Source: a virus | Taxonomy: Duplodnaviria > Heunggongvirae > Uroviricota > Caudoviricetes | Strand: one strand, 5' to 3' | Length of the DNA: 64,000 nt | Virus record (IMG/VR): IMGVR_UViG_3300037418_002962 | Span: 90,650-154,649 of that record | Part shown: positions 803 to 1,516 of the stretch, one piece after another | Layout of the letters: each line of letters starts with the position of its first letter | Numbering within the stretch: the first letter of the stretch is position 1 | The notes under the pieces: model-generated | Database searches by the model: none | What the model was told of the DNA's origin: nothing | The model's input: the letters and a program-made list of their open reading frames with translations, nothing else | Position numbers and translations under genes: made by a program

Positions 803-1516
803 ATGAAGAGCTTTAGAGAAATCCTTGAAGAAATTGTAAAGCATCTAGGAGTTGATAATCCATTTTTTATCCAACATGGACCAGATGAGGAAACCATTAC
901 CCATGAACATGGAATGCAGCTACACAAAAGACCAGATAAACACATTACTGAAGATGAACATAAAGCAATGCACAGTTACAGTGAAGGATTTTACAGAGAT
1001 ATTAACCATATTTTAAGAAATCAAAATTCATGGAAGAAAATGCGTAATGACATTGGCTACAAAAAAGATAAAATTGACAGGAACTTAAAAGATTTTAAGG
1101 AATATCATATTCCAAATATAGATAAGACAATCTCTCATCATACCACGGAACATCCTGCCACTGTATGGAGAGGGATTAATCCAGAAAATATAAAAACAAA
1201 AGAAGGCACTGTATTATCCGATAAGGGATTTACTTCTACTACATTACATCCTGCAATAGCAATAAAATTTGGCAGAGAATCTTTGCCAATGGGAAATAGA
1301 GATAATATACATATAGCAAAAATTAATCTACCAAAAGGAAGTAAAGCAGTATATCTTAATCAGAACAATCTTTCCAGTAATAAAAGGGAGCATGAAGTAT
1401 TACTTCCAAGGAACTCTAAGTTCCGTTACGAAGGTTCTAGTACTCATCCACATCCTAATAATGACTATGAAACTGTTACTGTACATCATCTTACACATTT
1501 ACCAGAGGAATCATGA
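803..1516 (+). CDS. capsid-targeted ADP-ribosyltransferase paralog 2
   Basis: N-term MKSFREILEE (T4-CTS-like); YSEGFYRDINHILRN, ATVWRGI, DKGFTSTTL, REHEVLLPRNSKFRYEG = PF03496-type motif set (Y..IN..LR / R / STS / ExE). Confidence 0.8.
   Translation: MKSFREILEEIVKHLGVDNPFFIQHGPDEETITHEHGMQLHKRPDKHITEDEHKAMHSYSEGFYRDINHILRNQNSWKKMRNDIGYKKDKIDRNLKDFKEYHIPNIDKTISHHTTEHPATVWRGINPENIKTKEGTVLSDKGFTSTTLHPAIAIKFGRESLPMGNRDNIHIAKINLPKGSKAVYLNQNNLSSNKREHEVLLPRNSKFRYEGSSTHPHPNNDYETVTVHHLTHLPEES

What the first reader, a model, noticed from the sequence alone, without database searches (positions are those of the whole stretch)
1330..1440. Hypervariable ARTT / PN loops on a conserved catalytic scaffold point to diversified targets
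The catalytic blocks are near-identical across paralogs. The segment before ExE (the ARTT loop that selects the acceptor) differs completely among them: NQNNLSSNKREHE, NSHKRDLGIGYEHE, NHNIGKTREHE, EHVSFGAGGENE, NQRSLSKHFGEQE, HHNNSSEEQE, NQEKTSSYPDEHE, NKYHFDNDWEHE, PSYHGLGKAHEQE. The PN loop after STS also differs. The third position of ExE is always E (an Arg-specific ART type), while the first is E, D, G, W, Y or H. Near-identical 25-30-nt DNA cores (for example catgataa[ag]ggatt[tc]gt[tc]tc[ct]aca) could mediate gene conversion among members. The pattern looks like an arms-race repertoire, each enzyme modifying a different host or defence protein.
Basis: inference. Interest (0 to 1): 0.75.

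Follow-up and report, generated by a model that had tools for sequence, protein, structure and literature searches.

The report
Phage arsenal of 28 tagged ADP-ribosyltransferases
A large T4-like phage carries at least 28 intact copies (10 in this window) of a small toxin-type enzyme that attaches ADP-ribose to proteins; each copy begins with the short tag that phage T4 uses to load proteins into its head, and each has its own, conserved version of the loop that chooses the target, so this looks like a pre-loaded cocktail of injected host-modifying enzymes.

Summary
All ten in-window genes are PF03496 (Alt/VIP2/C3-type) R-S-ExE ADP-ribosyltransferases with a confident C3/Vip2-like fold. Three corrections apply.

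1. The ExE motif is E-[HQN]-E in all ten copies. The "variable first position" is the residue before it.
2. The ARTT and PN loops are no more variable than four other segments.
3. Synonymous sites are saturated, so the shared DNA cores follow from conserved peptides plus AT-rich codon bias, not gene conversion.

The ARTT loop differs between paralogs (15% identity) but is conserved between orthologs in related phages (59%, against 37% for other variable segments; p = 6e-5). That indicates fixed, paralog-specific specificity rather than ongoing hypervariation.

The family is larger than reported. The window joins an upstream contig, and 28 intact paralogs lie in 90 kb, interleaved with baseplate genes. 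Nearly all start with MK[ST]FK[EQ]L[LI]xE. This resembles the T4 internal-protein capsid-targeting and protease-cleavage leader (MKTFKEF, MKTYQEFIAE). The same leader sits on an Acb1 anti-CBASS enzyme and on a HEAT-repeat protein.

Best reading: a head-packaged, DNA-co-injected effector arsenal. Packaging, activity and targets are untested.

The parts
1..370 (+). 3' part of an ART paralog. The full gene is 212 aa and starts 268 nt upstream of the window (N-terminus MKSFKQLTEI). ARTT loop and motif: NKHRASHFPD-EHE.
370..801 (+). gp25-like baseplate wedge subunit. Its stop abuts the next ART gene (1-nt gap).
   Evidence: phrog_261; PF04965
803..1516 (+). ART paralog, 237 aa (the gene of the finding). 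Leader 803-832; catalytic Arg123 at 1169-1171; STT 1235-1243; PN region 1244-1309; ARTT loop 1352-1387; E-H-E 1388-1396.
1513..2256 (+). ART paralog, 247 aa. 4-nt overlap with the previous gene.
2256..2927 (+). ART paralog, 223 aa.
4799..6313 (+). Protein not homologous to the ARTs, with LRV/HEAT repeats. It carries the same N-terminal leader (MKSFSQLLEA). Its ortholog in L141 also has the leader.
7051..8853 (+). gp6-like baseplate wedge subunit. Its stop overlaps the start of the next ART gene.
8853..9566 (+). ART paralog, 237 aa.
9563..10183 (+). ART paralog, 206 aa. N-terminus MKTYKELLEK.
10170..10808 (+). ART paralog, 212 aa. 14-nt overlap with the previous gene.
10805..11440 (+). ART paralog, 211 aa. 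Ortholog P0002 is 54% identical and sits in the same position, upstream of a gp7-like baseplate gene.
36163..36846 (+). ART paralog, 227 aa. It lies in an operon headed by a TATAAATA motif at 34654-34661, separated from the upstream genes by gaps of 9 and 2 nt.
37871..38497 (+). ART paralog, 208 aa. N-terminus MKTFKELLKE. It lies just upstream of the large terminase gene.
48289..48939 (+). T4 gp21-type prohead protease, the predicted processing enzyme for the leaders. Its own N-terminus is MKLLRDYLTE.
44423..51989 (+). T4-type head module: portal 44423-45922, scaffold 49474-50559, major capsid protein 50622-51989.

Best explanation
The window belongs to an uncultured T4-like jumbo phage (contig of 243.7 kb). 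The phage has expanded one small (202-280 aa) Alt/VIP2/C3-type mono-ADP-ribosyltransferase into at least 28 intact paralogs, 10 of them in this window. The genes are wedged between, and translationally coupled to, late baseplate, neck and terminase genes.

Each protein has three parts:
1. A 9-10-residue N-terminal leader, M-K-[ST]-F-K-[EQ]-[LY]-[LI]-x-E. This resembles the capsid-targeting sequences of the T4 internal proteins and ends in the [LI]-x-E site cut by gp21-type prohead proteases.
2. A divergent helical N-terminal region.
3. A conserved R / S-T-[ST] / E-x-E catalytic core.

Proposed mechanism (inferred):
- The proteins are made late and drawn into the prohead core by the leader.
- The phage's gp21-like protease trims them after [LI]-x-E.
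- They are ejected with the DNA into the next host cell.
- There, before any phage gene is expressed, each ADP-ribosylates arginine on its own set of host proteins, which may belong to transcription, translation or defence systems.

Specificity is set mainly by the ARTT loop. That loop is different in every paralog but conserved within each orthologous lineage.

The same leader on an Acb1 anti-CBASS phosphodiesterase and on a HEAT-repeat protein suggests it is a general delivery tag for an injected effector cocktail.

Shown here: family membership, fold, intact catalytic residues, copy number, gene context, leader conservation, and the loop conservation pattern. Inferred: packaging, cleavage, injection, enzymatic activity, arginine specificity and distinct targets.
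For: ART identity:
- PF03496 hits at E 1e-16 to 1e-27 for all copies.
- PDB profile search: Vip2 at E 1.6e-23, followed by CDTa, iota toxin Ia and C3.
- AF2 model with pLDDT 90 and pTM 0.86. Foldseek top hits are Vip2, Plx2A, CDTa and C3bot.
- The T4 Alt ART domain is also PF03496 and aligns to the family profile at 96.7% probability.
- Catalytic Arg, S-T and the third Glu are present in 28/28 copies. The first Glu is E in 27 and Q in 1.

Copy number and context:
- The last 280 nt of L143 are identical to window 1-280. The merged 90.3 kb holds 28 ART ORFs (18.9 kb, 7.7% of the contig) interleaved with gp53, gp5, gp25, gp6 and gp7-like genes.
- Junctions with structural genes overlap by 14, 8, 4 or 1 nt, or leave gaps of 1-2 nt.
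- T4-type portal, gp21-like protease, scaffold and major capsid protein are in the window. The terminase is 45% identical to T4-like cyanophage and pelagiphage gp17.

Leader:
- It is present on 9/9 full-length in-window ARTs. The peptide pattern occurs nowhere else in the six-frame translation except the HEAT protein.
- [LI]-x-E lies within the first 11 residues (Glu at 8-11) in 26/28.
- The leader is 47-54% identical among paralogs, while the next 40 residues are 12-14% identical. Synonymous codon match in the leader equals expectation (0.55 against 0.55), so the constraint acts on the peptide and not the RNA.
- T4 IPI starts MKTFKEF, and IPII/IPIII start MKTYQEFIAE. In T4 the first 10 residues suffice for head targeting and are removed by gp21 (PMC9026906).
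- The same leader is found on the Acb1-like protein (MKTFKHFIAE; the Pfam domain starts at residue 16). It is also on the HEAT/LRV protein and its L141 ortholog, and on a non-ART protein in L001.
- In L001, a second T4-like lineage, five leader-bearing ARTs directly flank the portal-protease-scaffold-capsid module.
- In other phages, ART and Acb1-like domains are fused to MuF, portal or head proteins (PMC9503650).

Specificity:
- ARTT identity is 0.15 among 378 paralog pairs and 0.59 (56/95) in 8 ortholog pairs. Other variable segments score 0.37 (343/927) in orthologs; Fisher p = 6e-5.
Against: - No virion proteomics, cleavage data, enzymology or target data exist. The phage is known only from metagenomes and its host is unknown.
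- The leader resemblance rests on about 10 residues. The HEAT-protein leader shares only 2/10 exact identities with T4 IPIII, and most ART leaders share 2-5/10. The similarity is at the level of pattern.
- The genes sit mostly in baseplate operons rather than the head module in this phage, so a tail or baseplate location, or simply late cytoplasmic expression, is possible.
- TATAAATA is not enriched overall (12 observed against 10.5 expected).
- The ortholog test uses only 8 pairs at 50-62% identity, and orthology was assigned by best hit.
- E-x-E predicts arginine specificity only by analogy with characterised C3/Vip2/iota-type enzymes.
- Part of the C-terminal conservation is explained by overlapping downstream starts and ribosome-binding sites, not by protein function.
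Confidence: 0.6

Rival explanations
1. First reader's model. The family is a fast-evolving arms-race repertoire whose ARTT and PN loops are under continuing diversifying selection. Gene conversion through near-identical 25-30-nt cores shuffles the cassettes.
For: - Loop sequences differ completely among paralogs.
- Two shared exact runs of 35 and 30 nt are longer than in codon-resampling simulations (p about 0.01).
- One pair (10170 against the copy at 1-370) has a synonymous match ratio of 1.47.
Against: - Synonymous codon identity at conserved residues equals the codon-usage expectation overall (1663 against 1616) and within every conserved block.
- Each paralog is closer to its ortholog in another phage (50-62%) than to any paralog in its own genome (37-46%).
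- The ARTT loop is 59% conserved between orthologs, the best of all variable segments.
- The PN loop is not distinguishable from other loops.
- A second assembly of the same phage is 100% identical over 10.5 kb, so no population variation is visible.
Confidence: 0.1
2. Redundant dosage or drift. The paralogs all modify the same few host proteins (for example RNA polymerase, as T4 Alt/ModA/ModB do). The loops differ only because they are weakly constrained. The copy number serves dosage or robustness.
For: - The T4 ARTs overlap in targets (reviews cited).
- All non-core segments are equally saturated among paralogs.
Against: - The ARTT loop is conserved between orthologs significantly more than other variable segments (p = 6e-5).
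- All 28 copies keep intact catalytic residues despite saturating divergence.
- Orthologous copies are retained in at least two other phages.
Confidence: 0.13
3. The enzymes are real, but the N-terminal motif is not a capsid-targeting or cleavage signal. It could be an integral helix of this ART subfamily, or a tag for another location (tail lumen, baseplate or membrane). On this reading the enzymes act late in the producing cell or from the tail.
For: - In this phage most copies sit in baseplate operons.
- AF2 models residues 4-12 as a helix.
- There is no direct evidence of packaging.
Against: - The motif occurs on three unrelated folds: ART, Acb1 2H-phosphoesterase and HEAT/LRV, plus an unknown 242-aa protein in L001.
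- It is an add-on ahead of the Acb1 Pfam domain and is absent from T4 Acb1.
- It matches T4 IPI/II/III N-termini and the gp21 [LI]xE rule.
- In L001 the genes flank the head module.
Confidence: 0.17

Closest known systems
Phage T4 Alt (head-packaged, gp21-processed, DNA-co-injected Arg-specific ADP-ribosyltransferase; Alt/VIP2 clade)
   Same: - Same Pfam family (PF03496) and R-S-ExE active site; profile alignment probability 96.7%.
- T4-like phage with a gp21-type protease.
- An N-terminal [LI]xE-type propeptide is predicted.
   Different: - Alt is 682 aa, with a 370-aa N-terminal region that is absent here.
- T4 has one packaged ART (plus ModA and ModB); this phage has at least 28 small ones.
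- The leader here resembles the IPI/IPII/IPIII capsid-targeting sequence more than the Alt N-terminus (MELITELFDE).
- The genomic position differs: baseplate operons rather than next to gene 30.
T4 internal proteins IPI/IPII/IPIII and their capsid-targeting sequence
   Same: - N-terminal MKT[FY][KQ]EF... leader ending in [LI]xE.
- Unrelated cargo proteins share the tag. IPI is an anti-restriction effector, which parallels the tagged Acb1 here.
   Different: - The cargo here is enzymatic (ART, Acb1) and massively paralogous.
- Packaging is untested.
- Sequence identity to the T4 leader is partial (1-7 of 10).
MuF- or portal-fused and polyvalent virion effector proteins (Jamet/Iyer/Aravind); multi-ART polyproteins
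   Same: - ARTs of the same Pfam family are delivered through the capsid in many phages.
- Multiplicity of ART domains is known: 12 HYD2-clade domains in one protein. The profile search here also found polyproteins with up to 12 ART units.
   Different: - Here the ARTs are separate genes with a short cleavable tag instead of covalent fusion to MuF or portal.
- The clade is R-S-E Alt/VIP2, not H-Y-D.
- No MuF domain was detected.
Bacterial C3 exoenzymes and binary toxin A components (Vip2, iota Ia, CDTa)
   Same: - Closest solved structures and sequences.
- The ARTT and PN loops are homologous to those shown to set acceptor choice in these toxins.
   Different: - Those toxins target eukaryotic actin or Rho, and carry secretion signals or an extra pseudo-ART domain.
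- The proteins here are single-domain phage proteins that presumably act on bacterial targets.
Viruses with many ARTs (Bacillus phage G at least 10; Bodo saltans virus 12; PMC9503650)
   Same: Lineage-specific multiplicity of ARTs in a large virus genome.
   Different: - The count of 28 in one 244-kb genome exceeds the maxima reported in that survey of 21,191 viral proteomes.
- All 28 belong to one subfamily with a shared leader.

Membership tests
PF03496 ADPrib_exo_Tox / Alt-VIP2-C3 clade of R-S-E mono-ADP-ribosyltransferases | Significant match to the family profile above the curated cut-off | tested here: met
   60-97 bits against a cut-off of 23.4 for all nine full-length in-window copies. 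Out-of-window copies also hit.
PF03496 ADPrib_exo_Tox / Alt-VIP2-C3 clade of R-S-E mono-ADP-ribosyltransferases | Catalytic triad motifs: aromatic-Arg, Ser-Thr-Ser/Thr, Glu/Gln-x-Glu | tested here: met
   R in 28/28, S-T in 28/28, third Glu in 28/28; first position E in 27 and Q in 1. Invariant in the ten in-window copies.
PF03496 ADPrib_exo_Tox / Alt-VIP2-C3 clade of R-S-E mono-ADP-ribosyltransferases | C3/Vip2-type ART fold | tested here: met
   AF2 pLDDT 90 and pTM 0.86. Foldseek hits to Vip2 1qs2 (E 3e-13), Plx2A, CDTa and C3bot.
PF03496 ADPrib_exo_Tox / Alt-VIP2-C3 clade of R-S-E mono-ADP-ribosyltransferases | NAD-dependent ADP-ribosylation of arginine in a protein substrate | not testable with these tools
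   Needs enzymology. Arginine specificity is inferred only from E-x-E by analogy.
T4-type capsid-targeted internal head proteins (CTS-bearing, gp21-processed) | N-terminal leader of about 10 residues resembling MKT[FY][KQ]EF.. | tested here: met
   Consensus is M-K-[ST]-F-K-[EQ]-[LY]-[LI]-x-E. T4 IPI starts MKTFKEF; IPII/III start MKTYQEFIAE. Exact identity to IPIII is 1-7 of 10.
T4-type capsid-targeted internal head proteins (CTS-bearing, gp21-processed) | [LI]-x-E protease site at the end of the leader | tested here: met
   Present in 26/28 ARTs, in Acb1 (I-A-E) and in the HEAT protein (L-L-E).
T4-type capsid-targeted internal head proteins (CTS-bearing, gp21-processed) | gp21-type prohead protease and T4-type head module in the same genome | tested here: met
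   phrog_207 at E 5e-71 for ORF 48289-48939; portal, scaffold and major capsid protein adjacent.
T4-type capsid-targeted internal head proteins (CTS-bearing, gp21-processed) | Late expression together with structural genes | tested here: inconclusive
   Genes overlap or abut baseplate genes on the same strand. A TATAAATA motif at 34654 heads the operon containing ART 36163. The motif is not enriched overall, and no expression data exist.
T4-type capsid-targeted internal head proteins (CTS-bearing, gp21-processed) | Physical presence in the head, N-terminal trimming, ejection with DNA | not testable with these tools
   Needs virion mass spectrometry or a T4 CTS-fusion assay.
Orthologs of T4 Alt | Protein of about 680 aa with a long N-terminal region ahead of the ART domain | tested here: not met
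   The proteins here are 202-280 aa. The alignment to Alt covers only Alt residues 408-514.
MuF-ART polymorphic phage toxins | N-terminal MuF (SPP1 gp7 / Mu F) head-morphogenesis domain fused to the ART | tested here: not met
   No MuF Pfam hit in any copy. MuF and other head-protein fusions are seen only in distant relatives.

The most novel reading that the evidence does not exclude
T4-like jumbo phages of this lineage use the internal-protein leader as a general 'load-and-inject' tag. With it they have built the largest known virion-delivered enzymatic arsenal: at least 28 ADP-ribosyltransferases with individually fixed substrate specificities, plus a pre-packaged Acb1 anti-CBASS nuclease and a HEAT-repeat protein. 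All would be delivered with the DNA, so host transcription, translation and immune signalling are disabled before any phage gene is expressed.
Probability: 0.4. Interest if true: 0.82.

Novelty: new variant of a known kind. Interest (0 to 1): 0.7.

Why it matters
Head-packaged ARTs (T4 Alt) and capsid-targeting leaders are classic, but each is known from only a handful of proteins. This genome combines them at an unprecedented scale. It has 28 intact paralogs, against maxima of 10-12 in a survey of 21,191 viral proteomes. It also extends the tag to a bona fide anti-defence enzyme (Acb1).

If the proteins are packaged, three things follow:
- There would be a natural panel of 28 closely comparable enzymes whose ARTT loops map onto 28 substrate choices. 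That is an unusually clean system for working out how ARTT loops encode acceptor specificity.
- Phages would be shown to pre-load anti-CBASS activity into the virion, answering how defences triggered before phage gene expression are countered.
- A short portable tag would be available for engineering cargo delivery in T4-like phages beyond T4.

If they are not packaged, the family is still the largest single-subfamily ART expansion seen in a phage.

Tried and rejected
Rejected as uninformative. Synonymous codon identity equals the codon-usage expectation, so dS is saturated.
- **Population variation.** The only other assembly of this phage (L081) is 100% identical over 10,472 nt, so there are no SNPs to analyse.
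- **Gene conversion.** Tested by codon-resampling simulation. There is no global signal, only two marginally long runs.
- **Near-DNA search in the isolate phage collection.** No match.
- **tblastn of an ART against isolates.** Only MuF-type and minor-head fusions in siphophages were found, and no T4-like isolate.
- **Retrieving the 243.7-kb JGI contig.** The metagenome-contig scan did not return it. Look-ups by window proteins gave only a 10.5-kb Logan contig. The upstream region was eventually reached through paralog P0005 and its neighbours.
- **T4 late-promoter motif TATAAATA.** Not enriched in the window as a whole. Used only as local support.
- **Pfam on other leader-bearing or neighbouring ORFs.** No hits for the N-terminal half of the HEAT protein, L001:11405-12133, or the 600-, 478- and 415-aa ORFs.
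- **Word-indexed homolog search with the Acb1-like protein.** Found only itself.
- **Conserved C-terminal tails (HHLTH[IL]PE, YLG.HHE[DE]T) as a second cleavage signal.** Largely explained instead by out-of-frame overlap with the next gene's start (14-nt overlap ATGAAGACACTTAA) and by purine-rich ribosome-binding sequences. Not pursued as a protein signal.
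Full report
**1. What is at the coordinates**

Window 1330-1440 lies inside ORF 803-1516 (237 aa). It encodes ...PKGSKAVYLNQNNLSSNKREHEVLLPRNSKFRYEGS.... Nine full-length ORFs are mutually 31-45% identical: 803, 1513, 2256, 8853, 9563, 10170, 10805, 36163 and 37871. A tenth copy is cut by the window start (its 3' end occupies 1-370) and is 37-49% identical to the others. All nine full-length copies hit Pfam PF03496 (ADP-ribosyltransferase exoenzyme) at E 1e-16 to 1e-27.

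A profile of the family finds Vip2 (E 1.6e-23), then CDTa, iota toxin Ia and the C3 exoenzymes among solved structures. An AlphaFold2 model of ORF 803 is confident (pLDDT 90, pTM 0.86). Its best structural matches are Vip2, Plx2A, CDTa and C3bot. In the model the segment before ExE (residues 185-197) is a loop leading into the strand that carries Glu198. This is the position of the ARTT loop in C3 and Vip2. The segment after S-T-T (148-169) is a helix plus loop at the PN-loop position.

**2. Corrections to the observation**

- *ExE motif.* The motif is E-[HQN]-E in all ten in-window copies, and both glutamates are invariant.
- *Divergence pattern.* Divergence is not uniform, but the ARTT and PN loops are not special among the variable segments. 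Mean pairwise identity across all 28 paralogs (section 4) is 0.15 (ARTT) and 0.14 (PN). Other variable segments score 0.12 (residues 11-50), 0.07 (73-101), 0.13 (loop after the catalytic Arg) and 0.10 (C-terminal hairpin). Core strands score 0.59-0.73 (ten-copy table).
- *Shared DNA cores.* The cores exist; the quoted pattern occurs three times. At positions where two paralogs share an amino acid, however, they share the codon 1663 times against 1616 expected from codon usage alone. There is no excess in any conserved block. Synonymous sites are therefore saturated. The cores follow from conserved peptides in a 35% GC genome. Gene conversion is unnecessary, and dN/dS cannot be estimated.
- *Residual anomaly.* Two exact shared runs of 35 and 30 nt are longer than in 300 codon-resampling simulations (maximum averaging 23; p about 0.01).

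**3. The phage**

The terminase (38872-40656) is about 45% identical to gp17 of T4-like cyanophages and pelagiphages. The window also holds a T4-type portal, a gp21-type prohead protease (48289-48939), a scaffold protein and the major capsid protein. It further holds gp25- and gp6-like baseplate proteins. There is no near DNA match among 50,697 phage records. The source is a 243,684-bp metagenomic contig.

**4. The family is much larger than ten**

One homolog on the same contig (P0005) is not in the window. Looking it up led to a 38-kb Logan contig from the same sample. Its last 280 nt are identical to window 1-280. The merged 90.3 kb contains 28 ART ORFs, totalling 18.9 kb, or 7.7% of the genome.

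The gene order is: gp53, ART x3, Acb1, ART x2, a 415-aa ORF, ART x8, gp5, ART x6, gp25, ART x3, a 600-aa ORF, the HEAT protein, gp6, ART x4, gp7-like. Two further ARTs lie just upstream of the terminase.

All 28 keep the catalytic Arg, S-T and the third Glu. Twenty-seven have E-x-E and one has Q-H-E; that copy is L143:12770-13489, just upstream of the window. Junctions between ART genes and structural genes overlap by 14, 8, 4 or 1 nt, or leave gaps of 1-2 nt. The ARTs are therefore part of the late structural operons.

A survey of 21,191 viral proteomes reported maxima of at least 10 ARTs (Bacillus phage G) and 12 (Bodo saltans virus) (PMC9503650).

**5. A conserved N-terminal leader**

All nine full-length in-window copies begin M-K/I/Q-S/T-F/Y/L-K/R-x-[ILY]-[LFQ]-[KE]-x. 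In the six-frame translation of the window this pattern occurs only at these nine starts and at the start of a non-homologous LRV/HEAT-repeat protein (4799-6313). Over the 28 copies the consensus is M-K-[ST]-F-K-[EQ]-[LY]-[LI]-x-E. In 26 of them an [LI]-x-E lies within the first 11 residues, with the Glu at position 8-11.

The leader is 47-54% identical among paralogs, whereas the following 40 residues are 12-14% identical. Its synonymous codon match equals expectation. The constraint therefore acts on the peptide.

The T4 internal proteins start MKTFKEF (IPI) and MKTYQEFIAE (IPII and IPIII). In T4 these first 10 residues suffice to target proteins into the prohead, and the gp21 protease then removes them. 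Residues 4 and 7 matter for targeting, and residues 8 and 10 for processing (PMC9026906).

The same leader occurs on unrelated proteins:
- An Acb1 anti-CBASS homolog in the array (PF23474, E 1.5e-30). Its domain starts at residue 16, and its N-terminus MKTFKHFIAE shares 7 of 10 residues with the T4 sequence. T4's own Acb1 (57B) has no such extension.
- The HEAT/LRV protein and its ortholog in another phage.
- A 242-aa protein of unknown family in L001.

The phage's own prohead protease starts MKLLRDYLTE.

**6. Relatives**

- L141 (ENA) is syntenic: ART, ART, gp25, HEAT, ART, ART, ART.
- L142 has an ART pair upstream of a baseplate-wedge gene (weak Pfam Baseplate_wedge hit), the same position as the gp7-like gene in the window.
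- L001 (IMG/VR) is a more distant T4-like lineage. Five leader-bearing ARTs directly flank its portal-protease-scaffold-capsid module.
- Homologs from other contigs also carry the leader.
- In many siphophage-type contigs and isolates the same ART domain is fused to MuF or other minor head proteins.
- The best matches to the Acb1-like domain in isolates lie inside portal or head proteins, and they start at query residue 16.
- An exhaustive profile search finds 364 proteins at E < 1e-30. The top hits are giant polyproteins with up to 12 ART units. This parallels the polyvalent virion proteins described by Iyer et al..

**7. How the loops evolve**

Four in-window paralogs have clear orthologs in L141 or L142 (52-59% identical, against 31-45% to paralogs in their own genome). 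Eight such pairs exist across the 28 copies (50-62%).

Between orthologs the ARTT loop is 59% identical (56/95). That matches the conserved helices and is well above the other variable segments (343/927 = 37%; Fisher p = 6e-5). The PN loop, at 34%, is not different from those segments (p = 0.5).

The ARTT loop is thus paralog-specific yet held constant within each lineage. This is the signature of fixed, distinct specificities rather than ongoing hypervariation.

**8. Interpretation**

Shown here:
- An expansion to 28 intact Alt/VIP2-type R-S-ExE ARTs.
- Location within late structural operons of a T4-like jumbo phage.
- A shared T4-internal-protein-like leader that also tags an anti-CBASS enzyme and a HEAT-repeat protein.
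- ARTT loops that are paralog-specific and conserved between orthologs.

Inferred:
- The leader targets these proteins to the prohead, and the gp21-like protease trims it.
- The enzymes are injected with the DNA and ADP-ribosylate different host proteins on arginine.

I put about 0.6 on the whole picture. ART identity is near certain, packaging about 0.65, and distinct targets about 0.6.

Rivals:
- An ongoing arms race with gene conversion (0.10).
- Redundant enzymes with drifting loops (0.13).
- A leader that is not a capsid tag (0.17).

**9. Novelty**

Head-packaged ARTs and capsid-targeting leaders are known, as is the prediction that Alt/VIP2 ARTs of myoviruses are often packaged. Three things are new: the scale of the expansion, the separate-gene-plus-tag architecture, and the extension of the tag to Acb1. 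I classify this as a new variant of a known kind.

Noticed in passing
L145:10694-11185 (same genome, about 15.6 kb upstream of the window start): An Acb1 anti-CBASS homolog (PF23474, E 1.5e-30) sits inside the ART array. It carries a 15-residue N-terminal extension, MKTFKHFIAERQTNM, that shares 7 of 10 residues with the T4 IPII/III capsid-targeting sequence. T4's own Acb1 (57B) lacks it. In isolates, the closest Acb1-like domains are embedded in portal or head proteins.
   Followed up: partly
window 4799-6313: A 504-aa protein has an unknown N-terminal half and C-terminal LRV/HEAT repeats with the unit DKLVNDP..VR..VA. It carries the same leader (MKSFSQLLEA), and its ortholog in L141 also has the leader. 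Function unknown.
   Followed up: partly
L143:12770-13489 (window -984 to -265): One of the 28 paralogs has Q-H-E instead of E-x-E, plus a 20-residue C-terminal extension. In C3-type enzymes, Q-x-E goes with a non-arginine (Asn) acceptor.
   Followed up: no
window 10170-10183, and six other ART-ART junctions upstream: There is a recurrent 14-nt gene overlap, ATGAAGA[CG]ACTTAA. The conserved C-terminal tail ..HHE[DE]T* of one gene is the out-of-frame reading of the next gene's leader, MK[TR]LK. The other C-terminal class (..H[IL]PEE/G) places a purine-rich GAGG-like sequence 6-9 nt before the next ATG.
   Followed up: partly
window 6310-7020 (-), 16440-16976 (+), 40664-41293 (+); L145:4649-5647 (-), 11182-11841 (-): Several homing-endonuclease-like genes (weak HNH and NUMOD3 Pfam hits in the window, and GIY-YIG plus NUMOD3 upstream) interrupt the structural and ART modules. 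Two of them (6310-7020 and 40664-41293) share a C-terminal ..WPDGHEE.I.N...FC.EN.L motif.
   Followed up: no
window 803-2927 compared with L141:3686-5711: The order of the first two of three orthologous ART genes is swapped between the two phages: 803-like, 1513-like, 2256-like in the window, and 1513-like, 803-like, 2256-like in L141. In L141 the HEAT gene directly follows gp25.
   Followed up: no
P0098-P0201; P0099 read: Public metagenomes contain giant proteins of 2,000-4,300 aa with up to 12 tandem units of this ART domain, some apparently degenerate. This is the same multiplicity strategy realised as one polypeptide.
   Followed up: no
window 2968-4770 and 46156-47592: Two large ORFs (600 aa and 478 aa) sit within the baseplate and head modules. 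The first has no Pfam or PHROG match; the second matches only an unannotated PHROG over its last 55 residues.
   Followed up: no
window 50622-51989 (residues about 50-65) and L001:7778-9145: Both major capsid proteins have a conserved ..L-x-E / [AT]-[AS]-P-T-N-S.. junction about 57-63 residues in. This is consistent with a T4 gp23-like maturation cleavage that obeys the same [LI]-x-E rule.
   Followed up: no
window 26146, 34654, 43682, 44285, 45931, 49437, 50571 (+ strand): TATAAATA, the T4 late-promoter core, lies 25-140 nt upstream of the starts of structural genes (tail tube, portal, scaffold, major capsid protein). The motif is not enriched in the window overall.
   Followed up: partly
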